Below are positions 9,056 to 36,998 of a DNA stretch of 64,000 nucleotides, in pieces. Below the pieces are notes generated by a model. The model searched no databases. It was given only the letters and a program-made list of their open reading frames with translations, and had not been told where the DNA came from. Position 1 is the stretch's first letter, and the number at the start of each line of letters is the position of its first letter. Source of the DNA: an uncultured Planctomycetia bacterium (GTDB lineage: Bacteria > Omnitrophota > Gorgyraeia > VGKH01 > JBHPFN01); the NCBI GenBank assembly GCA_964406665.1, contig CAYOSQ010000005.1, positions 21,929 to 85,928 of the forward strand. The letters are read 5' to 3'. The position numbers were made by a program, and so were the translations under genes.

Positions 9056-9261
9056 TTTTTCCTCCCAATAGAGTTTATTTCATTTAGTAGTGTTATTATA
9101 TAATAAATAATAATTATTACTATTATTTTTTCCTAAAAATATAAAAGATAACGCTTCCTTTATTTTCTCCACACCCCTTGAAAAGAGTCTATATTATGCT
9201 TTACTATATTATAGATAGACATATCCGAAAATTTCCTTTAGAATAAAGGAGACCTGTAGCT

Positions 9262-9360
9262 AAATTATTGGCAGGGGCAAACTTAGGGAAACCTAAGGAC
9301 GCAAAGTTTCGGGCCTAAAGAGAAGGATTCCAATGGCAGCCGAGCGTACCGAAAACGTGG
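9262..9360 (+). promoter_or_regulatory. c-di-GMP-I (GEMM) riboswitch aptamer
   Basis: Sequence 'GGCAGGGGCAAACUUAGGGAAACCUAAGGACGCAAAGUUUCGGGCCUAAAG...GCAGCCGAGCGUACCGA' matches the GEMM-I consensus nearly position by position. Matching blocks: GGGCAAAC, GNRA-capped P2 hairpin CUUAGG-GAAA-CCUAAG, GGACGCAAAG, CGGGCCUAAA, CAGCCG...UACCGA (compare the Vibrio Vc2 aptamer). Confidence 0.8.
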
Positions 9361-9385
9361 GAAAAATTATAAAAAATCTTTTAGA

Positions 9386-9416
9386 AGATTTAGCGCGTAA
9401 GTCTAAATTTTTTACT
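9386..9416 (+). terminator. Candidate riboswitch expression-platform terminator
   Basis: AGATTTAG-cgcgtaagt-CTAAATTT hairpin followed by a T-run. An overlapping alternative hairpin AATCTT/AAGATT sits immediately upstream (mutually exclusive pairing). Confidence 0.3.
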
Positions 9417-9474
9417 CTGTTTCTTTTTGGGAGCAGAGTTTTTATTTTGGCGAGAATTAAAAAAGGGGGAAGCA

Positions 9475-10776
9475 ATGTTTAGAAGAAAAAGAAGCAATAA
9501 TTCAGGTATATCTTTGGTAGAAATTTTGGTTACTGTTTTTATTGTTGTATTGCTATTATCTACAGCGGTAACAACACTTGTCAGAGGAGCTAGGTTAAGA
9601 GAGGTAGCTGATCAAAAGACAAGGGCAATATTAGATGGGCAAAGTGTTTTTGAAGCGATGCGCGAAATTGCTCAAAATGCTGGAATAAATGATTTGTACA
9701 GGTGCGGCGCATCTTTTCGTGCAAATGCATATGTTGATTTGAATCAAGTTTTAGGCGGTGCGTCACTTTTAGATGAGCAAATACGTATTTTTTATCCCAG
9801 TGGTGTTACGGCACGTCCATTGCATTGTAGGTTGCAGATTAGCTGGACAGATTTTCGCGGTCAAACCGTTGCAGAAACAATAGAAACGAAATTTTGGGAA
9901 TTGGTTGCAGTAACTCCTGATAATGGAAGCTGTGGCACCTGCTTCCTCGCCGGCACCCCTATCCTTATGGCTGATGGCTCAACTAAGGATATTGAAACAA
10001 TTAAGGTAGGAGATACTGTAATAGCCTTTGATCAAGAATCTGGTAAGAATAAATCTGATGAGGTAGTTGAGACATTCATTCATGAAGAAGATAGCTATCT
10101 TTTAATCAATAATCGCATTAAGGCAACATCCAACCACCCTGTATTTCATAAAGGAAGATGGGTAGATATCGGATTGCTTAACATAGGTGATGAATTAACT
10201 AAGGTAGATGGTTCTAAAGAAAAGATCACCAGCATAGAAAAGATCAAAGAACCTGTAATGGTATACAACCTTGAGGTTAACCCTTATCATACATATTATG
10301 CTGATAACATATTAGCTCATAATAAGGGCTGTCTATTACCAGGCACAACTATACTTATGGCTGATGGCACTAACAAGTTTATTGAAAATATAGTTACCGG
10401 GGATAAAGTAACCTCTTATGATGAAGAATCTAAGACCAAGTTAAAAGATACAGTTAAAGAAGTATTCATGCATGAGGTACAAGGATACCTGATAATCAAT
10501 GATAGCATTAAAGTAACAGCAGAACACCCCTTCTTCTCTAATGGTATATGGGTTAGAGCAAAAGATCTTAAAGAAGGAGATATATTACTTACTCAAGAAG
10601 GTAAAGAAGAAGCTATTACCAGCATAAAAGCTGTTGATAAGAAGATCGTCGTTTACAACATTGAAGTAAACCCATATCACAACTACTTTGCTAATGGATA
10701 TCTGGTGCATAATAAAAGTTTGCCACAGGTACCTGTTCCACCACCAGATCCACCAGGTGGAGGATATGGGAATTAG
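9475..10776 (+). CDS. Type IV pilin-like (pseudopilin) protein with two tandem C-terminal Hint / bacterial intein-like (BIL) domains
   Basis: RBS 'aaagggggaag'. Class III signal 'MFRRKRSNNSG|ISLVEILV' (Gly-1, Glu+5). A pilin globular region with a Cys pair follows. Then two ~135-aa repeats, each starting with Cys ('CFLAGTPILMADGS', 'CLLPGTTILMADGT'), containing TxxH ('TSNH', 'TAEH') and ending 'VNPYHxY...HN'. Pro-rich tail. Confidence 0.7.
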   Translation: MFRRKRSNNSGISLVEILVTVFIVVLLLSTAVTTLVRGARLREVADQKTRAILDGQSVFEAMREIAQNAGINDLYRCGASFRANAYVDLNQVLGGASLLDEQIRIFYPSGVTARPLHCRLQISWTDFRGQTVAETIETKFWELVAVTPDNGSCGTCFLAGTPILMADGSTKDIETIKVGDTVIAFDQESGKNKSDEVVETFIHEEDSYLLINNRIKATSNHPVFHKGRWVDIGLLNIGDELTKVDGSKEKITSIEKIKEPVMVYNLEVNPYHTYYADNILAHNKGCLLPGTTILMADGTNKFIENIVTGDKVTSYDEESKTKLKDTVKEVFMHEVQGYLIINDSIKVTAEHPFFSNGIWVRAKDLKEGDILLTQEGKEEAITSIKAVDKKIVVYNIEVNPYHNYFANGYLVHNKSLPQVPVPPPDPPGGGYGN

Positions 10777-10816
10777 AGCTTGAAAACTTTGAAGTATATA
10801 TTTTTGAAGTTATAGT

Positions 10817-11356
10817 TTGGAGATGGTTATGAGATTTATGTATACAACAAAAAAAGGATTTACTTTCATGGAAACTTTAGTTGCTACCTTGGTTACCACT
10901 GTTATGTCTGCAGTCGTGATAACCACGATAGTTTGTTTAATGAATTTCTTTTTTGGGGAAGTTGCCAATGCTGAACTAAAACGGAAGGCTCACCAGTCAT
11001 TATCAACAATTATCCAGGATTTAAGAACTGCTGAGCCTGATGGAGCTAATGGTATTGATGTTTTAAATGATGGTGATAACAATAAGATTACTGCACGACT
11101 TGCAGGTGGTTGGGATGCTAATGGTTTTCTTGTGTATTCTACTGATGATACTCATTATTGGTTAGATGGAGATGAACTGGTTAAAGACAATATTGATACT
11201 GGAGAACGTAGAGTTCTCTGTAATCTTGCTTCAAGATTTAACTGTACAGAATATGCTGAAGGTCATTATTCTATGACCTTAATTTTAACTAAGGATACTG
11301 TGTTGAAAACAATTACTTATACTGCTACTGAAAACTTTGGTGTAAGAAATGATTAG
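10817..11356 (+). CDS. Prepilin-type N-terminal cleavage/methylation domain protein (minor pilin-like)
   Basis: 'KKG|FTFMETLVATLV' class III signal with Glu+5 followed by a hydrophobic helix. Start could be at one of the in-frame Met codons 10817-10838. Confidence 0.6.
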   Translation: MEMVMRFMYTTKKGFTFMETLVATLVTTVMSAVVITTIVCLMNFFFGEVANAELKRKAHQSLSTIIQDLRTAEPDGANGIDVLNDGDNNKITARLAGGWDANGFLVYSTDDTHYWLDGDELVKDNIDTGERRVLCNLASRFNCTEYAEGHYSMTLILTKDTVLKTITYTATENFGVRND

Positions 11357-11371
11357 TTTATAATGCAAAAT

Positions 11372-11567
11372 TTGAAAGGGTAGTTAAAATGCTAGCTATG
11401 AGATTACGCAAAAATGGACTTGCTATGATATTGAGTTTGGTGCTGACACTTGTTGTGTCTTGGGTAACAGTACCTATAATCATGACAGCTTTAGGGCATA
11501 CTCAAAATTCCAAAATAACAACCACTGCAATTGAAGCTAGAGAGGTAGCTGAAGCCGGAATAGCTGA
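11372..11567 (+). repeat. 196-bp direct repeat (RBS + 5' coding end), copy 1; partner at 13254..13449
   Basis: Identical to 13254..13449 except for 1 mismatch (11546 t vs c). The bodies downstream are only about 50% identical at protein level. Confidence 0.9.
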
Positions 11568-13207
11568 GGATTAAGGACGGCTTTACTAATAATTCTCTTC
11601 CTGCCAACTTTCCTAAAAACCCTAGTGAAACCGGCTCTAGTTTTTCTTATAATATCTGGCCAGGTGGAGAAGCCTTTCCAGTAGGAAGTGGTTCTGAATA
11701 TTCAGTAAATGTAGAATTAACCTTGGCTACTAATGACTTCGTTGAAGGAATAGGTGGAAACGGAGTGTATCGCTATATTTTAACCTCTAGCGGTACTGTC
11801 CCAACTATGGGTGGAGAGGTTAAGAAAACTGTTCAGGCAGGAGTAACATTTGATTATTTCTTTGGTGAGAATGTTAGGATGTGCGAAACTGACGAAGGTC
11901 CAGATTGCACAAGAGATCTAGGACATTCTTATTTCAATAATCAAAAGTCAATTATTCATTTAGATACAACTAACATAGCTGAGGGACGCTATCTTCGTCC
12001 AGGCAGATATAACCTATCATATTTCGGAAGGTATGGAGAAGGTCAGGGACCGGGTGCTGAGGAGGACCATGCTCGTCAAAGTGCTGAGGACCTTGTGCTT
12101 CTTTTTGATGAATATAGATTAGAGTTTCCAGAATGGCGGGATGCTAACGGTGATCACCTCGGACGCGATCCAGGAGGTGGAGTGCAGTATGAAGAATTTT
12201 TAGTTGACTACAATTTACAGGATCATAACGAACAATTTTTTCAGTATATAGATGAAAATGGTACAAATAACGAAGACAGCCCACCCTTCAATTTTGAGGT
12301 TTTAAGCCGTGATCCAGAAAACGAAGATGATGTGTTTATCGCAGAATTGAACTGCAGATTTAATTCTTCGCAATCAGCCGGCTGTGAAGACGATCTTGAT
12401 TTAGAACCTGGTGCACCCTGTACCCAATTTTGTGATGCTACTGAAGCAGCATTTGGAAGTGGTTCTTGGCCAGATTATCAGGAAGCATGTATGAACGCTT
12501 GCTATAGAAACAGTAGTGAGGTTTCATTTTCTTTTCAAGATGTTCATCCTGATTCAGAGGCGCATGTTCGTTGCTCGACTCCTGATGTATGCTTGAGACA
12601 TTGCTCTCATAACTATCAGTGGAATTATTATGATTCAACATGTCGTCAGCAGTGCGATACTACACATGGTTTTCTCCCTAGCAGAAAACAGCCCCAGGTG
12701 TGGATGCAATGTATGGTAGACTGCACTAATATTGAAGAATCTTTTGTTGCAAGTGAGTGTAATCAGCTATGTGATAATCCAGATTTATGTTTTGATTACT
12801 TTGCAGGAGATTATCAGCGTTATGCTAGAACCGATGATCCCCAGCAAGGTTTTCCTGGAGCACCAATACAGTTAAATTCTGAATGCTTTCAATTGTGTTC
12901 AGGAGTAACTAATATTTGGGGTTGTCGTGAGAGATGTGACAAAAAATTCTTTAGACGAGACACAACAGGAGATATTGTTATTTCTGCAATGAATAGAGTT
13001 GTTAAGGATAAATATGGCAAGTTTTATTGGCATGATGAAGACGATGATAATTCTTGTCATTATCCGCCTTGCGAACCTGCAACTGGTGGAAGTGTACATT
13101 TTGGTGATGGTACTTCACTTGAAATAGGTTTTGTTCTGAATATAGAGCAAGATCAAAGAATTGTAATAGTAGATTTTCAGTGGTTAGAAGTTGGTGGGGA
13201 TTATTAG
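11389..13207 (+). pseudogene. PilX_N-type large cysteine-rich pseudopilin-like protein, frameshifted paralog of 13271..15112
   Basis: N-terminal 62 codons are nearly identical to the downstream gene. An 11-nt deletion relative to copy 2 at about 11567 produces a stop ('GIAED*'). Homology continues in another frame (ORF 11723..13207, TTG as first codon), including all CX3C motifs. Confidence 0.55.
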
Positions 13208-13253
13208 TTTTTTGATTAAATGGATTCTGGTAATTAAATATAACAGCACTGAA

Positions 13254-13449
13254 TTGAAAGGGTAGTTAAAATGCTAGCTATGAGATTACGCAAAAATGGA
13301 CTTGCTATGATATTGAGTTTGGTGCTGACACTTGTTGTGTCTTGGGTAACAGTACCTATAATCATGACAGCTTTAGGGCATACTCAAAATTCCAAAATAA
13401 CAACCACTGCAATTGAAGCTAGAGAGGCAGCTGAAGCCGGAATAGCTGA
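13254..13449 (+). repeat. 196-bp direct repeat, copy 2
   Basis: See 11372..11567. Confidence 0.9.
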
Positions 13450-15112
13450 AGCCTTGATGTGGATTAAGAATGGTTTTACTTATAATACTCTTCCTGCCAA
13501 CTTTCCCAAAAACCCATCCGAAGTCGGCCCTGGCTTTGCTTACGATATCTGGCCAGGTGGAGAAGCCTTTCCTGCAGGAGGAGATAATAAGTATGCTGTA
13601 AATGTAGAATTAACCTTGGCTACTAATAATTTCATTGAAGGAGTAGATGGAAATGGAGAGTATCGCTATATTCTAACCTCTAGCGGTACTGTTCCGACTC
13701 TAGGTGGAGAAATAGAAAAAACTGTTCAGGCAGCAGTAACTTTTGATTATTATTATGGTGATGATATCGATATTTGTACAGTAGGTTCAGGACAAGACTG
13801 CACTAGAGATTTAGGTTATGAATATGTAAATGATAGAAAGCCGATAATTCATCTTGATACAACTAATGAAGCAGAAGGTCGTTATGTGCGTCCTGGTTTT
13901 TATAGCATAAGCTATAACGGTGAGTATGATATTGATCAAGGAGCCGGAGCAGAAACAACTGGACCTGATAGAGAATATGCTATGTATGGTTCAGAAAATA
14001 TGGTTGTATATCTTGATGAAGCAGCTCTTCTTTTTCCTGAGTGGAGAGATTTAGATGGAAATGGACGTGCTTCTTATGGTGGAGAGATTAGTCCTGAAGA
14101 ATTTCTTGTAAAGCCATGGTTGCAAGATTATACGGTTCATTTGTTTGAAAACATTGATGCAAATGGTACAAATGACGACCCTCCATTTAATTTTGAGGTT
14201 ATTGAAAGGGATCCTGAGAATCCTGAAGATAGGTTTATAATTGAATTATTTTGCGAGTCTGATAGCCTCCCAATAGGAAGTTGTTCCGGAGACCTTGATC
14301 TTGAGTCAGGTTCTACATGTTCCAATTTCTGTGAAGCAGTAGAGGATGCATATACAACCTTGGCATGGCCAGACTATGAAGCAGCATGTATGGCTGCCTG
14401 TGGAAGAAATGTTCTTGTAGAATATTCTTTTCAAGATGAACATCCAGATTCAGAGGCTAATGTTCGCTGTGGTGACAGTCAAATATGTTTGATTTATTGC
14501 GCCCACAGCTATCAATGGAATTATTACGATTCTTATTGTCGTCAAATATGTGATGTACATTATAATTTTGATCCTAATGCTCCTAATTATGGTCTTAGGC
14601 AGTCTCGAGATTGGAATGAGTGCATGGTTGATTGCTCAGATTTTATTTATGTAACTCCGGGATTCGAGTGTCAAAATTGGTGCGATGATCATGAGTCTTG
14701 TATGGATTTCTTTAGTGAAGAATATCAGATGAATGCGACAGAAGACAATCCAGCTCAATTTATTCCTGCAGTTGATCCAAGACAATTCATGTCGCAATGC
14801 GATAGAATGTGTAAAAGTGTAGATAATATTGGAGAATGCCGCAGCAGCTGCGATAGAAGATTTTTCCGTCAAGATGTTACAGGCGATATTGTTATAACTT
14901 TAATGAATAAATTGGCTAAAGAGAAACGTAAGAGGTTTCATTGGAATTCAGCAGACGATAATAGCTATGATTGTGAGTGGCCATGTGAACCAATAACTGC
15001 AGGTAGCGTTCATTTCGGAGATGCTGAGGGTACGGCTTTTGAGCTTCAGATAAATGATGATCTTAGAATAATTTTGAAGGATTTTCAGTGGATAGAAATA
15101 CCAAATGAATAA
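13271..15112 (+). CDS. PilX_N-domain pseudopilin-like protein with large cysteine-rich C-terminal region (putative pilus-tip/adhesin component)
   Basis: 'RLRKNG|LAMILSLVLTLVV' prepilin-like signal lacking Glu+5 (as in GspK/PilX), then 'AIEAREAAEAGIAEA' typical of PilX_N. Nine CX3C motifs (CSNFC, CMAAC, CLIYC, CRQIC, CMVDC, CQNWC, CDRMC, CRSSC, CEWPC). RBS 'gaaagggtag'. Confidence 0.65.
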   Translation: MLAMRLRKNGLAMILSLVLTLVVSWVTVPIIMTALGHTQNSKITTTAIEAREAAEAGIAEALMWIKNGFTYNTLPANFPKNPSEVGPGFAYDIWPGGEAFPAGGDNKYAVNVELTLATNNFIEGVDGNGEYRYILTSSGTVPTLGGEIEKTVQAAVTFDYYYGDDIDICTVGSGQDCTRDLGYEYVNDRKPIIHLDTTNEAEGRYVRPGFYSISYNGEYDIDQGAGAETTGPDREYAMYGSENMVVYLDEAALLFPEWRDLDGNGRASYGGEISPEEFLVKPWLQDYTVHLFENIDANGTNDDPPFNFEVIERDPENPEDRFIIELFCESDSLPIGSCSGDLDLESGSTCSNFCEAVEDAYTTLAWPDYEAACMAACGRNVLVEYSFQDEHPDSEANVRCGDSQICLIYCAHSYQWNYYDSYCRQICDVHYNFDPNAPNYGLRQSRDWNECMVDCSDFIYVTPGFECQNWCDDHESCMDFFSEEYQMNATEDNPAQFIPAVDPRQFMSQCDRMCKSVDNIGECRSSCDRRFFRQDVTGDIVITLMNKLAKEKRKRFHWNSADDNSYDCEWPCEPITAGSVHFGDAEGTAFELQINDDLRIILKDFQWIEIPNE

Positions 15113-15139
15113 TTTAAAGAAATAAAAAAAGTTAAGTTT

Positions 15140-15173
15140 AGCGTTTTGACATGTTGTCAAAACGCTTTTTTTT
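15140..15173 (+). terminator. Strong rho-independent terminator ending the pilin-like operon
   Basis: Perfect hairpin AGCGTTTTGACA-tg-TGTCAAAACGCT followed by TTTTTTT. Confidence 0.8.
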
Positions 15174-15174
15174 G

Positions 15175-15202
15175 TTGACTAAACAAATAGTTTTGATAGA
15201 AT
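15175..15202 (+). promoter_or_regulatory. Sigma70-type promoter for etfBA
   Basis: TTGACT - 16 nt - TAGAAT immediately upstream of etfB. Confidence 0.45.
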
Positions 15203-17363: not shown

Positions 17364-17540
17364 ATGGTAGATCAAAACTTGATGACTATCGATGATCTCG
17401 CAAAATATTTGCGAGTCAAAAAAAGGACTATCTATGACTGGCTAAAGCAGCACAAGGTGCCGGCTTTTAAGCTAGTTGGTCAATGGCGTTTTAAAAAAGA
17501 AAGAATAGATGCTTGGTTAGAAAACCATGGTAGCAACTAA
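17364..17540 (+). CDS. Small helix-turn-helix DNA-binding protein (excisionase/MerR-type HTH)
   Basis: 58-aa ORF 'MVDQNLMTIDDLAKYLRVKKRTIYDWLKQHKVPAFKLVGQWRFKKERIDAWL'. It is below the ORF-track length cutoff. Classic excisionase-family HTH pattern. Confidence 0.55.
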   Translation: MVDQNLMTIDDLAKYLRVKKRTIYDWLKQHKVPAFKLVGQWRFKKERIDAWLENHGSN

Positions 17541-17551
17541 GGGAGGAAAAA

Positions 17552-17809
17552 ATGGGAGGTCTGAAATTGGCAAACTTAGAAAGTGATATTAGAGCCATAG
17601 TTGCAGAAGTGCTTGAGACTGAACCCGAATCGTTAAATCCGGATGCAAAGTTTGTTGAGGATTTAGGAATGGATTCTATGATGGCGCTTGAGATATTAGC
17701 TGCTATTGAGAAAAAATTCCGAGTTGCGATTCCTGAGGATAAGCTCTCGAGCTTTACTTCTTTGAACGAGACAATTAGGCTCATTGAAAAGATTATGTCA
17801 AAAAAATAA
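17552..17809 (+). CDS. Acyl carrier protein-like
   Basis: 'FVEDLGMDSMMALEI' phosphopantetheine-attachment Ser motif, 85 aa, RBS 'aagggaggaaaaa'. Confidence 0.65.
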   Translation: MGGLKLANLESDIRAIVAEVLETEPESLNPDAKFVEDLGMDSMMALEILAAIEKKFRVAIPEDKLSSFTSLNETIRLIEKIMSKK

Positions 17810-21130: not shown

Positions 21131-22324
21131 TTAAATTGCTGAGCGGACTAAATTCTTACCGTCTTTCTTGGCTTTGAATAATGCTTCATCTGCAGCATTT
21201 ACAAGATTAGATTTGTTCTTGGCATCTTCCGGGTAGGTAGCTACTCCTAAGCTTATAGTAATTTTAGGCTCAGATTTAGTTTCACCAAAAGAAAAATTGT
21301 GGTTTTCGGTTATTTCACGCAATCGGTTAGCTATAAATAAAGCTTCCTTGCGAGGTGTTTGTGGTAATATTATTGCAAATTCCTCTCCACCATAACGACA
21401 AACATAATCCATTTTTCTGGAGTGTTCCTTAAAGATGGTGGAAAGCTCTTTTAGAATTTTATCTCCTACTTGGTGTCCTAGGGTATCGTTGTAAGATTTG
21501 AAGTTATCAATATCTATCATAATTAGACTAAGAGGTAGCTTCAAAGCTTTTGTTCTGCTTAACTCTTCTTGAAGATTAAGCTGGAAATAACCATGGTTCC
21601 ATAGTTCAGTAAGCGAGTCTGTATTGGTGCGCATGACAGCATGTTCGTAAAGCTGAGAATTTTCAATTGCTAAGCCTGCTTGGTTTGCAAGCATAGTGAA
21701 TATTCTTAGATTATCTTTGGTAATAGGTTTTTGTGTAAATATATTATCTGCAACTATAATGCCAACAACTTTATCTTTTGCCCTAAGAGGTATCAGGACG
21801 ACTTCAGTAGTATTAAATTTATCCAAAAGTGGATCTTTTCTATATTTGCCTATTGATTTTTTTGTGATATGCAATGGCATCATATCAAAATAACATAAAG
21901 AAAGCAGATTGTTTTGCTTGGGATCGAGCGGAAGCTTAAATTGTCTAACGAAGCGGTTGAATTCGGAATCAATCATCTTCCCGGACGCCTTATACGCTTC
22001 GATAAGATTGTTTAGATCCGTTTGTTCTTTTTCGATCTTATCCCATATTTTTTTTGCTTTTTCTCCGGTGACTGGGCCAATACCCATTTTCCCTTCAATA
22101 ATTTTATCGTTTTCATTTACCAGAAAAAGCATGGCTCGGTTAAACCTTAATCCTGAATGCGCTGTAACTCCGGTTAAAATAATATATAGGATTTCATCTA
22201 AGCGCAGAGTGGTGCGCATAGCATTGCTTACTTCATACAAAATAGAAAGCTCTGCCTGTGTTCGATTGAGTTCTTGCTGCAATTTTGATATTTGTTCAGG
22301 CTTTTTATCCATCATAGTATTCAA
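21131..22324 (-). CDS. GAF-domain diguanylate cyclase (GGDEF)
   Basis: C-terminal GGDEF domain with intact 'RYGGEEF' active site and 'DxLT' motifs. N-terminal coiled-coil/GAF-like region. Confidence 0.85.
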   Translation of the reverse strand: MNTMMDKKPEQISKLQQELNRTQAELSILYEVSNAMRTTLRLDEILYIILTGVTAHSGLRFNRAMLFLVNENDKIIEGKMGIGPVTGEKAKKIWDKIEKEQTDLNNLIEAYKASGKMIDSEFNRFVRQFKLPLDPKQNNLLSLCYFDMMPLHITKKSIGKYRKDPLLDKFNTTEVVLIPLRAKDKVVGIIVADNIFTQKPITKDNLRIFTMLANQAGLAIENSQLYEHAVMRTNTDSLTELWNHGYFQLNLQEELSRTKALKLPLSLIMIDIDNFKSYNDTLGHQVGDKILKELSTIFKEHSRKMDYVCRYGGEEFAIILPQTPRKEALFIANRLREITENHNFSFGETKSEPKITISLGVATYPEDAKNKSNLVNAADEALFKAKKDGKNLVRSAI

Positions 22325-31402: not shown

Positions 31403-32425
31403 ATGAATAAAAAAACTTTAGTATTTTCAATATTTATTTTATTGTTTTGTTCAAATGTCTATTCCCAAACCATTACGGAGGATAAGCAGGAAAAGCATGA
31501 AGATAGAGAATCTTTTAGCCAAAGTTATTCTACTGAGCAAGATACAAGTGATGAATCGAGATATCAGATTGAGTCTAATTTTGGATTTTTTATAGGATTT
31601 GATAACAACGTATTCTTAGATTCAACTCGCAAGGGCGATACTTTTCAGAATTATATTTATAGTTTAAATTATTCAAATAAACTAAAAAGAGATTTAGATT
31701 TAAAGATTAAGTACAGCCTTAACTCGCTTCAGTATGATAGATACACTGATAATTCTTCTGTGGGTAATACAGGAAATTTTGCTTTAGAGAAAAAATTGGG
31801 TGGGCGTAATCTTGTGGGAATTTCTACTGAAATAGGTTCTGTTTATTATCCAAGCAATGATCAGGGTGAATATTTTACAGCTGGAGGTTCTTTGTATGGT
31901 AAACAGTTTTTAGGAAAGAACCTGTATCATCGAGCTGGTTATAGTTTTTTAAGTAAAAGTTTTATGCATCGTAAGGCGAAAGACGGCAACGGCGTTGATA
32001 TGGAAGAAGAGAGAGATGATGTGCGCCATGCTATAGATTACGAAGTAGGGTTTTATCCGGATAATCAATCATTATTTAAGTTAAAAGGTCAGGTATATAA
32101 TAATGATTCTCGAGATGGATATATGGATTATTATGATTATGATTCTTTTAAGCTTGGCGCAACATTTATAAAACTACTAAACGATAAATGGTCATCGCTT
32201 CTTAACTATAATTTTCGTAGAAATAATTATAAAACTCGCCTAATTAAAAATGGATCAGAGGCAGAGTATGATAATAATCATACTGGAAACGCAGGAATTA
32301 TTTATAAATTAAGTGAAAACACTTCAGCATCAGCAATATATTCTTATTCGCAGAATTATTCTAATGATAGCGGTCAGGAATATTCCGTTAGCATGGTATC
32401 TTTAGGCCTGCGATATGCCTTCTAA
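31403..32425 (+). CDS. Putative outer-membrane beta-barrel protein
   Basis: Signal peptide, alternating Tyr/Gly/Asn-rich amphipathic strands, C-terminal 'LGLRYAF' (terminal Phe). Confidence 0.4.
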   Translation: MNKKTLVFSIFILLFCSNVYSQTITEDKQEKHEDRESFSQSYSTEQDTSDESRYQIESNFGFFIGFDNNVFLDSTRKGDTFQNYIYSLNYSNKLKRDLDLKIKYSLNSLQYDRYTDNSSVGNTGNFALEKKLGGRNLVGISTEIGSVYYPSNDQGEYFTAGGSLYGKQFLGKNLYHRAGYSFLSKSFMHRKAKDGNGVDMEEERDDVRHAIDYEVGFYPDNQSLFKLKGQVYNNDSRDGYMDYYDYDSFKLGATFIKLLNDKWSSLLNYNFRRNNYKTRLIKNGSEAEYDNNHTGNAGIIYKLSENTSASAIYSYSQNYSNDSGQEYSVSMVSLGLRYAF

Positions 32426-34352
32426 AATTTCAAAGATAAAGTTAAACAATCATATTACCAAATCAATTTTATTCGTAGTTGTCGCTGTAATTATTTTTTG
32501 TCTTTCTTTTTTTAGAGTTTTTGATTTATACGAATTAGTACTTCTTGATCTGCGTTTTAAAATCCGACCGGTTCAACAATTCATTGACGATATAGTTATT
32601 ATTGAAATTTCTGATGATACTTTGCAGAATTTAAGCCAGTGGCCACTGCCTCGTGATTTTCATGCAAGTTTAATGGATGTTTTAAGAGAGCTTAAAGTAA
32701 AGCAGGTATTTTTTGACATTTTATTTAGTGAAAAGACTAGATGGGATGATGTTTTCAGGGCTTCTTTGAAAAAAGCAGATAATGCATATCTTTCATATGC
32801 TTTTAGATTAGATAGTGATCCACGCCCAGGTGCTTTTAGGGCTAGTTCTGAAATTATCGCTCCCTTACTTGATAATTTTAATAAAGTAGTACATGGAAGC
32901 GGACATATTAATATTTTAACTGATGCTGATGGTAAGAGTAGATGGGCACCTCTTTTCGTTAAATATAAAGACGATCTTCATCCCCATATTGCTTTAAAAG
33001 CCGCTTGTGATTATCTAGGGATTTCTTTGGAAGATGTGGCTTTGAAGAATAATTACTTATTAATAGGAAAAGAATTAAGTGTTCCTGTTTCAGATACAGG
33101 ATGTGTAATGATTAATTATGTTGGACCATGGACAAAAAGTTTCAAACATTACTCTTATTTTGACATACTTGCAGCTTATCAAGAAGAGAGAGAGGGCGTA
33201 GCTCCCCGAATCAATCTAAGAGCTTTAAGGGGTAAGGTTTGTTTTGTTGGTCTTACGGCTACAGGAACATTAGATCTGCATGCGATGCCACTTGAACCAA
33301 TTTATCCTATGGTGGGGTTGCATGCAAATATTTTCAATAGCATTGTTTTGAAGAAGTTTTTAACAAGATTAAGTAGAACTATTAATTTAGTTATTCTAGC
33401 TGTTTTAATTCTTTTAGCTTTATTGATTACGCTTAAATTTAGACCATTAAAAAGTTTTCTTACAGTTTTTGGTTTAGGTATTAGCTATGCTTTAATCTGT
33501 TTTGCTTTGTTTGTATTTCTTGGTTTATGGCTGGATTTATTCTTTCCTTTAGTAATTTTGATGGTAGTGTATTTGTCTGTAACGCTCTTGAAATTCCTTA
33601 GCGAGGCGAGAAAAAATGAGCTAATGGAAAAAGAGCTTTCAATTGCCAAAGAGATACAGATAAGTTTTCTTCCGGATGAGATAAATAAGTTTGCTGATAT
33701 AGAGATAGCCTCAGACATGGTAACAGCCAAGCACGTTGGTGGAGATTTGTATGATATCAGGGTATTAGATGATGATAAATTGGGAATATTTTTAGGAGAT
33801 GTTGCCGGCAAAGGTGTATCTGCTGCATTGGTTATGGCTAAGGCTATTTCACTGTTTAGGATTTTTTCGACTGAAACAGAATCTCCTGCAGCATTGCTTG
33901 AAAAATTAAATGATGCAATGGTTAAAGATTCTAAATCCGGATTGTTTGTAACTTCAACTTATATAATTTATGATTCTAAGCAGCATAAGGTAATACTTTC
34001 TAGCGGCGGACATCTTCCCACACTTCTGGTTAAAGGCAGGAGTGCAGAAAGTGAAATGATAGATGTTGAAGGTGGAATGCCTTTAGGAATAATGGATGGT
34101 GTAGAATTTTGTGATAAGACCATTGGTCTTAACATTGGTGATAGCGTAGTGCTGTATACTGATGGTGTTGTTGAAGCGAAAAACATTAAACGAGAAGATT
34201 TCGAAGAGGAAAGATTGGTAAGCTGCGTGGCTGAAAGTAAGAACTTAAGCGTACAAGATATTATTTCTACGATAAAGAGCAAATTAAGATTATTTGTTGG
34301 TAAAGCACCACAACATGATGATATAACTATTATTGTTTTTAAGAGAGTCTAA
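32415..34352 (+). CDS. CHASE2 sensor domain / PP2C (SpoIIE/RsbU-type) serine phosphatase
   Basis: N-terminal TM + periplasmic CHASE2-like region, 3 TM helices, then the PP2C core ('HVGGDLYD', 'GDVAGKGVSAALVMA', 'LYTDGVVEAKN'). Confidence 0.7.
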   Translation: MPSKISKIKLNNHITKSILFVVVAVIIFCLSFFRVFDLYELVLLDLRFKIRPVQQFIDDIVIIEISDDTLQNLSQWPLPRDFHASLMDVLRELKVKQVFFDILFSEKTRWDDVFRASLKKADNAYLSYAFRLDSDPRPGAFRASSEIIAPLLDNFNKVVHGSGHINILTDADGKSRWAPLFVKYKDDLHPHIALKAACDYLGISLEDVALKNNYLLIGKELSVPVSDTGCVMINYVGPWTKSFKHYSYFDILAAYQEEREGVAPRINLRALRGKVCFVGLTATGTLDLHAMPLEPIYPMVGLHANIFNSIVLKKFLTRLSRTINLVILAVLILLALLITLKFRPLKSFLTVFGLGISYALICFALFVFLGLWLDLFFPLVILMVVYLSVTLLKFLSEARKNELMEKELSIAKEIQISFLPDEINKFADIEIASDMVTAKHVGGDLYDIRVLDDDKLGIFLGDVAGKGVSAALVMAKAISLFRIFSTETESPAALLEKLNDAMVKDSKSGLFVTSTYIIYDSKQHKVILSSGGHLPTLLVKGRSAESEMIDVEGGMPLGIMDGVEFCDKTIGLNIGDSVVLYTDGVVEAKNIKREDFEEERLVSCVAESKNLSVQDIISTIKSKLRLFVGKAPQHDDITIIVFKRV

Positions 34353-36925: not shown

Positions 36926-36998
36926 GGGCCGATAGTTCAGTTGGGAGAACGCCTGGTTCGCAATCAGGAGGTCGGGGGTTCAACTCCCCCTCGGTCCA
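36926..36998 (+). tRNA. tRNA-Ala (anticodon CGC)
   Basis: Cloverleaf: acceptor GGGCCGA/TCGGTCC with G3:U70 Ala identity pair, D-stem GTTC/GAAC, anticodon stem CCTGG/TCAGG with loop TTCGCAA, T-stem GGGGG/CCCCC with loop TTCAACT. CCA is not encoded. Confidence 0.85.

What the first reader, a model, noticed from the sequence alone, without database searches (positions are those of the whole stretch)
9262..15173. c-di-GMP-riboswitch-controlled minor-pilin/tip-adhesin module with Hint-domain pseudopilin and CX3C-rich PilX_N proteins
One transcription unit appears to run from a GEMM-I riboswitch (9262-9360) to a strong terminator (15140-15173). It contains, in order, a pseudopilin with two Hint/BIL domains, a small prepilin, a frameshifted PilX_N-type protein, and an intact 613-aa PilX_N-type cysteine-rich protein. 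The layout resembles the Pseudomonas fimU-pilVWXY1 minor-pilin operon. Three things differ from anything I can place in a described family: the regulator is an RNA c-di-GMP sensor, the tip components carry autoprocessing Hint domains, and the paralogs have a ninefold CX3C array. No pilus assembly ATPase, platform protein or prepilin peptidase lies in the window, so the module would plug into machinery encoded elsewhere. A GAF-GGDEF cyclase sits 6 kb downstream.
Basis: partly seen in the sequence, partly recalled or inferred. Interest (0 to 1): 0.85.

Follow-up and report, generated by a model that had tools for sequence, protein, structure and literature searches.

The report
Riboswitch-controlled pilus-tip gene cassette with intein-like inserts
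An uncultured Omnitrophota bacterium puts a small operon of pilus-tip-type proteins behind an RNA sensor of the signal c-di-GMP; one protein carries two self-cutting intein-like domains and another belongs to a very rare cysteine-rich family, and I found no paper describing either combination.

Summary
Window 9266-9353 is a strong c-di-GMP-I aptamer (RF01051, 68.2 bits against a cut-off of 35). A terminator-like hairpin follows it, then four same-strand genes, then a strong terminator at 15140-15166.

- Gene 1 (9475-10776) is a prepilin-type protein with two intact type-A bacterial intein-like (Hint) domains.
- Gene 2 (10829-11356) is a second prepilin-type protein.
- Copy A (11389-13207) is disabled by a single 11-nt deletion.
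- Copy B (13271-15112) is an intact 613-aa protein with 24 Cys and nine CX3C motifs.

Three points are new.
1. The cassette is conserved in other Omnitrophota. In one orthologous cassette (L097) gene 1 has no Hint domains, so the Hint pair is an intein-like insertion about 20 residues from the C-terminus.
2. c-di-GMP-I aptamers recur upstream of Hint-bearing prepilin genes in at least three other loci.
3. The CX3C family is very rare: 12 hits among 1.84 billion representative proteins.

Pfam PilX_N is not detected, no PilY1 gene is present, and whether c-di-GMP switches the operon on or off is unresolved.

My reading is an accessory minor-pilin/tip cassette for a type IV filament encoded elsewhere. 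I class it as a new variant of a known kind. Interest about 0.6.

The parts
9216..9244 (+). Promoter-like site TAGACA-17-TAGAAT, 22 nt upstream of the aptamer
   Evidence: Consensus scan, 10 of 12 matches. This is a pattern match only; the site count in the region does not exceed the shuffled expectation.
9266..9353 (+). c-di-GMP-I (GEMM-I) riboswitch aptamer
   Evidence: RF01051, 68.2 bits against a cut-off of 35, E 3.1e-11. Related aptamers upstream of Hint genes keep the fold: 93.9% of cells paired and 13 of 22 pairs with changes on both sides, against 33-44% paired when the partners are slid.
9382..9449 (+). Expression platform: an AU-rich hairpin (about 9382-9413), then a terminator-like hairpin at 9414-9439 with a U-run
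   Evidence: Terminator scan: 11 pairs, tail TTTTTATTTTG. RNA folds. The terminator is predicted to form whether or not the aptamer is enforced, so the switching logic is unresolved.
9475..10776 (+). Gene 1: prepilin-type pseudopilin (433 aa) with a tandem pair of type-A BIL/Hint domains inserted 20 residues before the C-terminus
   Evidence: The G|ISLVE motif is visible in the sequence. N_methyl scores 18.1 bits, below the cut-off. With the Hint pair removed, the protein aligns end to end with the Hint-less 168-aa protein of L097: 34% identity over 167 columns, E 7e-28.
9940..10323 (+). Hint/BIL domain 1 (residues C156-N283)
   Evidence: PT-HINT. Best solved relative is 2LWY, 'bacterial intein-like domain', E 1e-14 over residues 156-283. 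Cys1, TxxH and the terminal HN are invariant in 13 homologues. The +1 residue is Lys.
10330..10713 (+). Hint/BIL domain 2 (residues C286-N413), followed by the 20-residue tail KSLPQVPVPPPDPPGGGYGN
   Evidence: PT-HINT best stretch, 310-428 in the 449-aa ORF numbering. PDB hits cover residues 283-413. AF2 pLDDT is 72-91 across both Hint domains.
10829..11356 (+). Gene 2: small prepilin-type pseudopilin (175 aa), G|FTFME, ends ...FGVRND
   Evidence: RBS GGAG lies 6 nt before the ATG. N_methyl 15.5 bits and TIGR02532 13.4 bits are both below cut-off. It matches L097's 175-aa protein at 34% identity over its full length, E 4e-31. The 5.8-billion-protein word-index search found only the protein itself.
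11370..11567 (+). 5' repeat of copy A (RBS plus the first 179 nt of coding sequence), nearly identical to 13252-13449 of copy B
   Evidence: One mismatch across alignment columns 11-208. Identity drops to 82-84% and then to 52-73% downstream. This is consistent with gene conversion.
11389..13207 (+). Copy A of the CX3C family: a pseudogene split by an 11-nt deletion between 11567 and 11568 (61-aa N-terminal piece; body frame open 11564-13207)
   Evidence: The same lesion occurs in L004-L006 and L095. The junction GAG GAU UAA G is not a slippery site, so I do not propose programmed frameshifting.
13271..15112 (+). Copy B: intact 613-aa protein with a pilin-like N-terminus (KNG|LAMILSLV, no Glu5, AEAG motif) and a Cys-rich helical region
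   Evidence: AF2 predicts helix 2-71 and four strands 91-160 at pLDDT 69-84 in most 10-residue blocks (56 and 49 in two). The family has only 12 hits in 1.84 billion representatives. No Pfam, NCBIfam or PDB match.
14252..14986 (+). Cys-rich region of copy B (residues 328-572) with nine CX3C motifs, eight of them arranged as four helix-loop-helix pairs
   Evidence: One search gives the positions. AF2 places 350/354, 373/377, 406/410, 423/427, 451/455, 467/471, 510/514 and 523/527 in consecutive short helices; pLDDT is 72-92 through 345-430 and about 79-88 at 450-490, lower (56-82) around 510-530. These Cys columns are invariant or nearly so in the family.
15140..15176 (+). Intrinsic terminator that closes the unit
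   Evidence: 12-bp stem, 5 GC pairs, 3-nt loop, TTTTTTTTGTT tail. The next gene, etfB, has its own promoter-like site at 15175-15202.
21131..22324 (-). GAF-GGDEF diguanylate cyclase (context only; any link to the riboswitch is inferred)
   Evidence: GGDEF E 2.4e-48 and GAF E 1.6e-07. GGEEF and an upstream RxxD are visible in the translation.

Best explanation
This is an accessory minor-pilin (pseudopilin) cassette of an Omnitrophota bacterium, transcribed from about 9245 to 15170 and gated by a c-di-GMP-I riboswitch that works through an intrinsic terminator in the leader.

The cassette encodes three kinds of class-III-signal proteins. By position and architecture they would form the priming/tip complex of a type IV filament whose motor, platform and peptidase are encoded elsewhere:
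- a small GspI/PilV-like pseudopilin (gene 1);
- a GspJ/PilW-like pseudopilin (gene 2);
- a large cap protein lacking Glu5 (copy B). Its exposed head is a bundle of helical hairpins, probably stapled by disulfides between paired CX3C motifs, and is the likely adhesin or recognition surface.

Copy A is a recently inactivated paralogue. The two copies exchange their 5' ends by gene conversion.

Gene 1 has acquired two tandem type-A bacterial intein-like (Hint) domains 20 residues from its C-terminus. After export they most likely cut themselves out (N-terminal thioester plus Asn cyclisation). That leaves a normal-sized pseudopilin, either ligated to its short Pro-rich tail or simply truncated.

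Shown: the aptamer, the domain content, the insertion status of the Hint pair, conservation of the cassette, recurrence of the riboswitch, and the rarity of the CX3C family.
Inferred: co-transcription, tip location, adhesin role, disulfides, autoprocessing, and the direction of c-di-GMP control.
For: Riboswitch and terminators.

Class III signal motifs are visible on genes 1 and 2. Copy B has G-1 but no Glu5, as in cap pseudopilins.

The full-length orthologue P0007 (42% identity) lies in a complete filament cluster: three response regulators, two PilZ proteins, an MshEN-T2SSE ATPase, T2SSF, pilins, a 257-aa protein with a pilin-like N-terminal helix and no G-1, the Hint pseudopilin, a 200-aa pilin and a PilM fusion.

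An orthologous cassette in L097 has a 168-aa Hint-less gene 1 (34% identity, E 7e-28), a 175-aa gene 2 (34%, E 4e-31) and three tandem CX3C paralogues. It sits behind a near-threshold RF01051 match of 33.4 bits with a 67-nt insertion. L098 has the same three gene types. L007 has two tandem CX3C genes in synteny with etfBA.

RF01051 lies directly upstream of prepilin-Hint genes in L008 (50.5 bits), L016 (60.7) and L026 (56.9).

Hint catalytic residues are invariant and the +1 residue is Lys. The closest solved protein is a BIL domain. In L008 a Hint-containing pseudopilin has a Hint-less paralogue that aligns on both sides of the insert. Type-A BILs splice or, more often, cleave (PMC4031507).

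The CX3C helices are predicted with good confidence. Type IV pili are near-universal in Omnitrophota and are proposed to mediate host attachment (PMC10066038).
Against: - No Pfam or NCBIfam model for PilX_N, GspK, GspI or GspJ reaches threshold on any of the four proteins.
- The AF2 models of the pilin parts are weak. Gene 1's N-domain has pLDDT below 50. Copy B averages 59.5, and Foldseek found nothing.
- No machinery lies in the window, so the partner filament is unidentified.
- Thermodynamic folding shows no mutually exclusive aptamer/terminator structures.
- L098 has the cassette but no detectable aptamer.
- Co-transcription is not measured.
- One of the two cap genes is broken, so the locus could be decaying.
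Confidence: 0.6

Rival explanations
1. The proteins form the tip of a type II secretion pseudopilus (GspI-J-K-like) that pushes substrates out, rather than an adhesive pilus. Copy B would be a GspK-like cap with no adhesin role.
For: All three protein types are pseudopilin-like. Gene 1 gives a weak hit to XpsI/GspI (E 5e-4, 20 bits) and a relative gives a faint GspK hit. L001's ATPase is of the T2SSE/MshE type and no secretin was seen within 21 kb. Giant-gene loci in Omnitrophota sit next to T2SS-like systems (bioRxiv 10.1101/2023.11.21.568195).
Against: The hits are far below their cut-offs (150 and 130 bits). A 613-aa cap that exists as tandem, rapidly diverging paralogues, and is swapped for unrelated 750-830-aa proteins in sister loci, fits a variable recognition surface better than a conserved secretion piston. 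L001 also carries PilM/PilO-like genes typical of pili.
Confidence: 0.17
2. The Hint pair is a selfish, intein-like passenger with no benefit to the host. It splices or cleaves out cleanly, and the interesting biology is only the riboswitch-controlled pilin cassette.
For: The insert is present or absent among orthologues and paralogues at defined sites (window versus L097; L008 397-aa versus 218-aa proteins). The catalytic residues are intact. Copy number varies from one to three. The Hint segments are much more conserved than the host pilin parts: 54-62% identity against unalignable N-terminal domains.
Against: No homing endonuclease is present. The +1 residue is Lys, so canonical splicing is impossible and cleavage should dominate (PMC4031507). 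The same Hint type ends many other Omnitrophota surface proteins that have only a short tail (L014, L015 and the domain lists). That pattern suggests a host-level use.
Confidence: 0.3
3. The locus is a polymorphic-toxin-like delivery system. PT-HINT would release a C-terminal effector, and the downstream genes would be effector or immunity cassettes.
For: The Pfam family is 'pretoxin HINT'. A 96%-identical variant (L003/L096) switches to different sequence exactly at the end of Hint 2 and carries different downstream genes. This resembles C-terminal displacement in polymorphic toxins.
Against: Only 20 residues follow Hint 2 in the window, and no toxin domain is found. In L003 the region after the Hint is the C-terminal strand region of a pseudopilin (39% identity to L008's Hint-less 218-aa pilin), not a toxin. 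The downstream genes all start with pilin-like helices.
Confidence: 0.04
4. The cassette is a decaying remnant and is no longer functional.
For: Copy A is frameshifted in every assembly that contains it. In two assemblies gene 2 joins copy B directly. Gene 1 lacks the long C-extein seen in L003.
Against: The aptamer scores far above threshold. Genes 1, 2 and copy B are intact with good RBS spacing. Gene 1's architecture (Hint pair plus short tail) matches that of P0006-P0008 inside a full pilus cluster. All 24 Cys of copy B sit in conserved columns.
Confidence: 0.07

Closest known systems
Clostridioides difficile pilA1 type IV pilus operon under the Cdi2_4 c-di-GMP riboswitch
   Same: An RNA c-di-GMP sensor with a transcription terminator in the leader of type IV pilin genes, tying pilus gene expression to c-di-GMP (PMC6366702).
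   Different: That switch is class II, controls the major pilin, is an experimentally shown ON switch, and is in a Gram-positive bacterium. Here the aptamer is class I, it controls an accessory minor-pilin/cap cassette without machinery, the direction is unknown, and the host is an Omnitrophota (PVC-group) bacterium.
Minor (pseudo)pilin tip complexes: T2SS GspI-GspJ-GspK and T4aP FimU-PilVWX(-PilY1)
   Same: Several small class-III-signal proteins plus one larger subunit that lacks Glu5, encoded together. A relative places the same genes inside a filament cluster.
   Different: No HMM of these families reaches threshold. There is no PilY1. The large subunit is an unrelated CX3C-rich family or, in sister loci, unrelated 750-830-aa proteins. 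The comparison with the known complexes rests on established knowledge of those systems, not on a structural match obtained here.
Type-A bacterial intein-like (BIL) domains / Pfam PT-HINT
   Same: Cys1, TxxH and a terminal His-Asn with no +1 nucleophile. The closest solved structure is the BIL domain 2LWY, E 1e-14. Such domains are known to sit in variable secreted proteins and to cleave or, less often, splice (PMC4031507).
   Different: The host protein is a type IV pseudopilin. The domains come in tandem sets of one to three. The site is either about 20 residues from the C-terminus or between the N-terminal part and the last strands. No toxin follows. I found no paper linking BIL/Hint domains to pilins.
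Twin-CX3C helical hairpins (small Tim proteins / CHCH-type folds)
   Same: Pairs of CX3C motifs lie on consecutive short helices joined by short loops. That is the geometry which allows two inter-helix disulfides (positions; helices). The comparison with small Tims is from general knowledge.
   Different: Four such pairs are concatenated in one 613-aa exported bacterial protein with a pilin-like N-terminus. There is no sequence similarity to any solved protein. The disulfides are not demonstrated.
MshE/MSHA-type c-di-GMP control of pili (MshEN domain, PilZ)
   Same: In relative L001 the same Hint pseudopilin is encoded with an MshEN-domain ATPase and two PilZ proteins. c-di-GMP control of this filament family therefore recurs at the protein level as well.
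   Different: In the window the sensor is an RNA element acting on gene expression, and none of these protein receptors is present in the 64 kb.

Membership tests
c-di-GMP-I riboswitch (Rfam RF01051) | Covariance-model score at or above the curated gathering score over the full model | tested here: met
   68.2 bits against 35, model positions 1-87 of 87, E 3.1e-11. It was the best member of clan CL00126 at this site.
c-di-GMP-I riboswitch (Rfam RF01051) | Two-hairpin fold kept through compensatory changes in related copies | tested here: met
   Across seven aptamers upstream of Hint genes, 93.9% of cells are paired and 13 of 22 pairs change on both sides; 0 of 500 shuffles reach this, and slid controls give 33-44%. 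Caveat: the alignment was fitted to the model.
c-di-GMP-I riboswitch (Rfam RF01051) | Binds c-di-GMP and changes expression through an expression platform | not testable with these tools
   A terminator-like hairpin follows at 9414-9439. Folding gives no alternative pairing. In-line probing and termination assays are needed.
Type IV pilin / pseudopilin (class III signal peptide; Pfam N_methyl PF07963, TIGR02532) | Short basic leader, Gly at -1, hydrophobic helix with Glu at +5 | tested here: met
   Gene 1 has RSNNSG|ISLVEILV and gene 2 has TTKKG|FTFMETLV, read directly from the sequence.
Type IV pilin / pseudopilin (class III signal peptide; Pfam N_methyl PF07963, TIGR02532) | HMM score at or above the curated cut-off | tested here: not met
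   N_methyl scores 18.1 bits (gene 1) and 15.5 bits (gene 2) against 21.2. TIGR02532 scores 13.4 against 16.3. These are short-motif models, and the homologues P0018, P0036, P0043 and P0050 do carry precomputed PF07963 hits.
PilX_N (Pfam PF14341) | HMM match to the PilX N-terminal domain | tested here: not met
   No hit on copy A or copy B at E up to 1-10. One of 12 family members reaches E 0.018. None of eight large proteins in the equivalent position in sister loci hits it. Only a motif-level resemblance remains: G-1, no Glu5, '..AEAG..'.
T2SS GspK / GspI / GspJ | NCBIfam or Pfam equivalog score at or above cut-off | tested here: not met
   XpsI (GspI) scores 20 bits against 150 on gene 1. 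GspK scores 9.9 bits against 130 on an L008 protein. Nothing hits copy B.
fimU-pilVWXY1 minor pilin operon | Presence of a PilY1-type protein next to the minor pilins | tested here: not met
   No PilY1/PilC family hit on any of the four proteins. The large proteins have no Pfam domain.
Hint superfamily, type-A bacterial intein-like domain (Pfam PT-HINT PF07591) | HMM score at or above cut-off | tested here: met
   144.8 bits against 27.7, two stretches. TIGR01445 intein_Nterm scores 26.4 against 24.5 and TIGR01443 intein_Cterm 20.3 against 15.6.
Hint superfamily, type-A bacterial intein-like domain (Pfam PT-HINT PF07591) | Catalytic Cys1, TxxH and C-terminal His-Asn, with no Cys/Ser/Thr at +1 | tested here: met
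   C156, T218, H221, H282 and N283 are invariant in 13 sequences. The +1 residues are K284 and K414. The definition of the type is taken from PMC4031507.
Hint superfamily, type-A bacterial intein-like domain (Pfam PT-HINT PF07591) | Autocatalytic cleavage or splicing | not testable with these tools
   Needs expression and mass spectrometry of the gene 1 products and of C156A, N283A, C286A and N413A mutants.
Polymorphic toxin system | Toxin domain C-terminal to PT-HINT, with a cognate immunity gene | tested here: not met
   Only 20 residues follow Hint 2. No toxin or immunity family is found. The downstream genes carry pilin-like N-termini.

The most novel reading that the evidence does not exclude
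The Hint domains are not passengers but a maturation chemistry for pilus-tip and other surface proteins of Omnitrophota. The N-terminal thioester made at Cys1 would be resolved by a nucleophile other than water or the protein's own tail. This would resemble cholesterol transfer in Hedgehog, and it would covalently join the pseudopilin's new C-terminus to a partner: the cap protein, a lipid, the cell envelope or a prey surface.

In addition, the conserved Hint-coding DNA would serve as the recombination joint that swaps whole tip cassettes (window type versus L003 type). Together these would give a c-di-GMP-gated, polymorphic, covalently assembled pilus tip.
Probability: 0.1. Interest if true: 0.9.

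Novelty: new variant of a known kind. Interest (0 to 1): 0.6.

Why it matters
Omnitrophota are abundant, uncultured, ultra-small bacteria thought to live on other cells. Nearly all encode type IV pili, which are proposed to be used for host attachment (PMC10066038).

This locus and its relatives suggest three things about how those pili may be built and controlled.
- These bacteria keep separate, swappable cassettes of tip proteins.
- Many of the cassettes are wired to c-di-GMP through class I riboswitches, a regulon not described for this phylum in the papers I could search.
- Pseudopilins can host active intein-like domains. That would add a self-processing step to pilus biogenesis that I did not find described.

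The CX3C-rich cap family is a compact, probably disulfide-rich fold with no relatives of known structure, and it is a candidate recognition surface. Each point can be tested with simple biochemistry on synthetic genes, without culturing the organism.

Tried and rejected
1. Fold assignment of copy B. The AF2 model averages pLDDT 59.5. Foldseek against the PDB gave nothing below E 0.25. A profile search against PDB sequences gave no hits.
2. Typing gene 1's pilin domain by structure. AF2 gives pLDDT below 50 for residues 37-154, so I ran no fold search.
3. ON/OFF logic from thermodynamics. The terminator pairs have probability 0.57-1.0 whether or not the aptamer is enforced. In the four sister leaders folded the same way (L008, L016, L026, L011), aptamer and platform also fold independently. 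In those leaders the terminator's 5' arm (CCCAUC) is complementary to the aptamer segment GAUGGG, which would suggest OFF switches. The window leader lacks this feature, so I do not commit to a direction.
4. Programmed frameshift in copy A. The junction GAG GAU UAA G has no slippery site and the lesion is an 11-nt deletion. Rejected.
5. Polymorphic toxin reading. No toxin domain is present. Rejected.
6. The metagenome scan with the CX3C alignment found no relatives. The 12-sequence alignment was too divergent for the pattern scan.
7. PilX_N, GspK and PilY1 membership: HMM tests failed.
8. Literature searches for Hint or BIL domains together with pilins or pseudopilins, and for Omnitrophota together with riboswitch or c-di-GMP, found nothing relevant.

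Full report
**Observation check.** The window carries a full-length c-di-GMP-I aptamer at 9266-9353 (RF01051, 68.2 bits against a gathering score of 35, E 3.1e-11). A promoter-like site lies 22 nt upstream, at 9216-9244. An 11-pair hairpin with a U-run lies at 9414-9439, between the aptamer and the first start codon at 9475, which has the RBS AAAGGGGG. Four ORFs follow on the same strand with gaps of 52, 32 and 63 nt. A 12-bp hairpin plus T8 at 15140-15166 closes the string, and the next gene (etfB) has its own promoter-like site. The scan found no convincing terminator in the intergenic gaps, and promoter-like sites are not enriched over shuffles (28 against 23.2 ± 5.2). A single transcription unit is therefore the simplest reading, but it is inferred.

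**The four genes.**
- *Gene 1* (9475-10776, 433 aa) starts MFRRKRSNNSG|ISLVEILV and contains two Hint domains (PT-HINT 144.8 bits, E 2.5e-42).
- *Gene 2* (10829-11356, 175 aa) starts MRFMYTTKKG|FTFMETLV.
- *N_methyl scores.* The N_methyl HMM scores 18.1 and 15.5 bits on genes 1 and 2, below the 21.2 cut-off. By motif they are prepilin-type; by curated HMM threshold they are not confirmed.
- *Copy A* (11389-13207) and *copy B* (13271-15112) are paralogues with 51% protein identity.
- *Lesion in copy A.* It lacks 11 nt between 11567 and 11568. Its body frame is open from 11564 to 13207, so this is the only lesion. Four other metagenome contigs carry it (L004-L006 and L095).
- *Shared 5' end.* The first ~200 nt, including the RBS, differ at one position between the copies. 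Identity then falls to 82-84% and to 52-73%. The deletion sits exactly at the 3' edge of the identical tract. This looks like gene conversion with a scar.
- *Cysteines.* Copy B has 24 Cys and nine CX3C motifs. Shuffles of residues 321-570 give a mean of 1.7 and never more than 6, against 8 observed.
- *PilX_N.* Pfam PilX_N does not match either copy. Only one of 12 family members reaches E 0.018.

**Organism and context.**
- *Organism.* Homologues of gene 1 are mostly annotated Candidatus Omnitrophota. A contig of Omnitrophota SAG AM-311-J20 (L007) is syntenic with window 12.4-18 kb: two tandem CX3C genes, then etfB, etfA, acpP and smc.
- *Rest of the window.* The other genes I scanned are mostly housekeeping: DnaG, RpoD, AlaRS, SecDF, HisD and others.
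- *No machinery.* tblastn with a relative's ATPase, platform and PilM proteins finds nothing in the window.
- *Cyclase.* The GAF-GGDEF gene at 21131-22324 (-) is real.

**Evidence that this is pilus-related.** The closest full-length relative of gene 1 outside the window's own population is P0007 (42% identity over 97% of the query). It lies in a 14-gene cluster: three response regulators, two PilZ proteins, an MshEN-T2SSE ATPase, T2SSF, two small pilins, a TPR membrane protein, a 257-aa protein with a pilin-like N-terminal helix, the Hint pseudopilin, a 200-aa pilin, and a PilM fusion with two small partners. This places the protein family in a type IV filament system that is itself linked to c-di-GMP at the protein level.

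**The cassette is conserved.** The exhaustive search with copy B returned only 12 hits among 1.84 billion representatives. The 5.8-billion word-index search returned only copy B itself and copy A.
- *L097* (assembly GCA_042567325.1) encodes a 168-aa pseudopilin, a 175-aa pseudopilin and three tandem CX3C proteins of 685, 657 and 631 aa.
- *L098* encodes 146-aa, 218-aa and 592-aa versions, followed by FIST, GAF-histidine kinase and response-regulator-GGDEF genes.
- Gene 2 matches L097's 175-aa protein over its full length (34% identity, E 4e-31).

**The Hint pair is an insertion.** With residues 156-413 removed, gene 1 aligns end to end with L097's 168-aa protein (34% identity over 167 columns, E 7e-28). 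The alignment runs across the junction: DNGSCGT|KSLPQVPVPP in the window against IDYSCEATGGVIPELPEPP in L097. L098's version ends before the insertion point, so the tail is dispensable.

The same pattern appears in SAG AM-311-J20 (L008). A 397-aa pseudopilin with one Hint has a 218-aa paralogue that matches it on both sides of the insert: residues 1-147 to 1-144 at 58% identity, and 156-218 to 335-397 at 48%.

Among 89 homologue clusters, 16 have a strict class III motif plus Hint. Most of these are the inserted type, with an 80-115-residue C-terminal part.

All 13 aligned Hint pseudopilins keep Cys1, TxxH and the terminal His-Asn, and have Lys, Gly or Ser at +1. The closest solved protein is a 'bacterial intein-like domain', 2LWY (E 1e-14). 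This is the type-A BIL pattern. Such domains form the N-terminal thioester and cyclise the terminal Asn; cleavage dominates, with some ligation of the flanks (PMC4031507). I therefore infer that gene 1 matures by self-excision of both domains after export. This is not shown.

**The riboswitch association recurs.** I combined Rfam with a covariance model built from the window aptamer, the L008 aptamer and the Rfam consensus.

| Locus | Rfam result | What follows the aptamer |
|---|---|---|
| L008 | RF01051, 50.5 bits | Prepilin-Hint gene, start codon 82 nt downstream |
| L016 | RF01051, 60.7 bits | Prepilin-Hint gene, start codon 108 nt downstream |
| L026 | RF01051, 56.9 bits | Prepilin-Hint gene, start codon 109 nt downstream |
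| L097 | RF01051, 33.4 bits, just under threshold; 67-nt insertion in the first hairpin | The Hint-less orthologous cassette |
| L014 | RF01051, 37.6 bits | A secreted, non-pilin protein ending in Hint |
| L015 | RF03167 (GGC variant), 60.5 bits | A 260-aa protein with a pilin-like N-terminal helix, then a signal-peptide protein ending in Hint |

- Weak hits from my model only precede prepilin-Hint genes in L011/L013 and L010.
- Hint pseudopilins that lie inside full pilus clusters (L001, L002, L009) have no aptamer.
- The seven aptamers keep the fold with many compensatory changes.

**Direction of control.** Each of the leaders of L008, L016, L026, L011, L014 and the window has a terminator-like hairpin after the aptamer. 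In the window the hairpin forms in silico whether or not the aptamer is enforced, so I cannot say whether c-di-GMP turns the operon on or off. In L008, L016, L026 and L011 the 5' arm of the terminator is complementary to the 3' strand of the aptamer's first hairpin. That would make them OFF switches. It is a sequence observation only, and it does not apply to the window leader.

**Copy B.** AF2 with the 12-sequence alignment gives a low overall confidence (mean pLDDT 59.5). Two regions are usable.
- An N-terminal helix (2-71) and a four-stranded sheet (91-160), with pLDDT 69-84 in most 10-residue blocks. This has the layout of a pilin.
- An all-helical Cys-rich region, with pLDDT 72-92 through 345-430 and about 79-88 at 450-490.

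Eight CX3C motifs fall on consecutive short helices joined by short loops: 350/354 with 373/377, 406/410 with 423/427, 451/455 with 467/471, and 510/514 with 523/527. This geometry allows two disulfides per hairpin, as in twin-CX3C proteins. These Cys columns are invariant or nearly so in the family. No fold or sequence relative was found.

The N-terminus (RKNG|LAMILSLV, no Glu5, AEAG motif) resembles cap pseudopilins such as GspK and PilX. No HMM supports membership.

**Variation between cassettes.** In sister loci the position after the pseudopilin is taken by unrelated proteins of about 744-834 aa with similar N-termini and no Pfam domain. A variant 96% identical to window 9306-10725 (L003, L096) diverges exactly after Hint 2. 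It continues into a pseudopilin C-terminal segment and an L008-type large protein. In two assemblies gene 2 joins copy B directly. These could be real recombinant alleles or assembly effects at repeats. Short-read contigs cannot decide.

**Comparison with known systems.**
- RNA-level c-di-GMP control of type IV pili is established for C. difficile pilA1, through a class II ON switch (PMC6366702).
- Type IV pili are near-universal in Omnitrophota (PMC10066038).
- I found no paper that mentions riboswitches or c-di-GMP in this phylum's pili, or Hint/BIL domains in pilins.
- I therefore file the locus as a new variant of a known kind. It has two components that appear undescribed: BIL insertions in pseudopilins, and the CX3C cap family.

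**Verdict.** Its interpretation is largely right but overstates the novelty of RNA control. It also treats the Hint pair as a fixed feature, when it is a facultative insertion. Confidence in the minor-pilin/tip cassette model is about 0.6. Interest is 0.6.

Noticed in passing
L093 2770-3198 and L094 1360-1788 (equivalent to the junction of window gene 2 and copy B): In two other samples' assemblies gene 2 is followed directly by copy B (429 of 429 nt identical) and copy A is missing. Both contigs stop at the same point. This could be a loop-out deletion between the ~200-nt identical 5' repeats or an assembler jump.
   Followed up: partly
L003 1-3558 and L096 1-2247 (equivalent to window 9306-10725, then divergent): A variant 96% identical to the window from mid-aptamer to the end of Hint 2 continues into a pseudopilin C-terminal segment (...SSVTLRN) and an L008-type large protein. 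Both contigs start at the same base inside the aptamer, which suggests an assembly-graph branch point: a second locus or an allele.
   Followed up: partly
L008 4450-15907: SAG AM-311-J20 has a riboswitch followed by three consecutive pairs of pseudopilin plus large protein. The pseudopilins carry three, one and zero Hint domains, so Hint copy number varies between paralogues within one locus.
   Followed up: yes
L015 4221-4306: An RF03167 c-di-GMP-I-GGC variant aptamer (60.5 bits) in a high-GC organism precedes a 260-aa protein with a pilin-like N-terminal helix and a signal-peptide protein that ends in a Hint domain.
   Followed up: no
L014 2132-2281: A c-di-GMP-I aptamer of 150 nt against the 87-position model, with the extra sequence just after the first hairpin (37.6 bits), precedes a 1110-aa secreted protein that ends in Hint plus the short tail KPPNGYCKDC. 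The 'surface protein-Hint-short tail' architecture is therefore not confined to pilins.
   Followed up: no
Leaders of L008 (4533-4614), L016 (3869-3976), L026 (5244-5352) and L011 (4914-5076): The 5' arm of each leader terminator (CCCAUC...) is complementary to the 3' strand of the aptamer's first hairpin plus the following Gs (GAUGGG). This is a possible antiterminator pairing that would make these OFF switches. It is absent from the window leader.
   Followed up: partly
L098 10066-13763: The CX3C cassette of L098 has no detectable aptamer. It is followed directly by FIST, GAF-histidine kinase and response-regulator-GGDEF genes, and lies near RcpC and Rotamase_2 genes.
   Followed up: no
L001 7721-9208: Inside the pilus cluster of the relative there is a 495-aa multi-pass membrane protein with C-terminal TPR repeats, next to the pilin genes. 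It could be a pilin-modifying enzyme, but I did not examine it.
   Followed up: no
L012 1-13698: One Hint protein homologue (P0009, 591 aa) sits in a phage-like contig with RNA ligase, PNKP-type kinase, endonuclease VII, GIY-YIG and SSB genes.
   Followed up: no
window 9930-9942 (gene 1 residues 152-156): A Cys lies four residues before Cys1 of Hint 1 (SCGT|C), and Cys-rich linkers precede the Hint domains in L008 and P0012. This could be a redox trap for the autoprocessing step in the periplasm. It is an untested idea.
   Followed up: no
window 17364-17540, 32415-34352 and 36926-36998: A 58-aa ORF lies upstream of an 85-aa ORF at 17552-17809 that resembles acyl carrier protein; I ran no family search on either, and my reading of the 58-aa product as a helix-turn-helix protein is by eye only. 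A CHASE2-SpoIIE phosphatase lies at 32415-34352. The tRNA at 36926-36998 overlaps the listed TTG start of the radical-SAM ORF at 36941, so that start is probably wrong.
   Followed up: no
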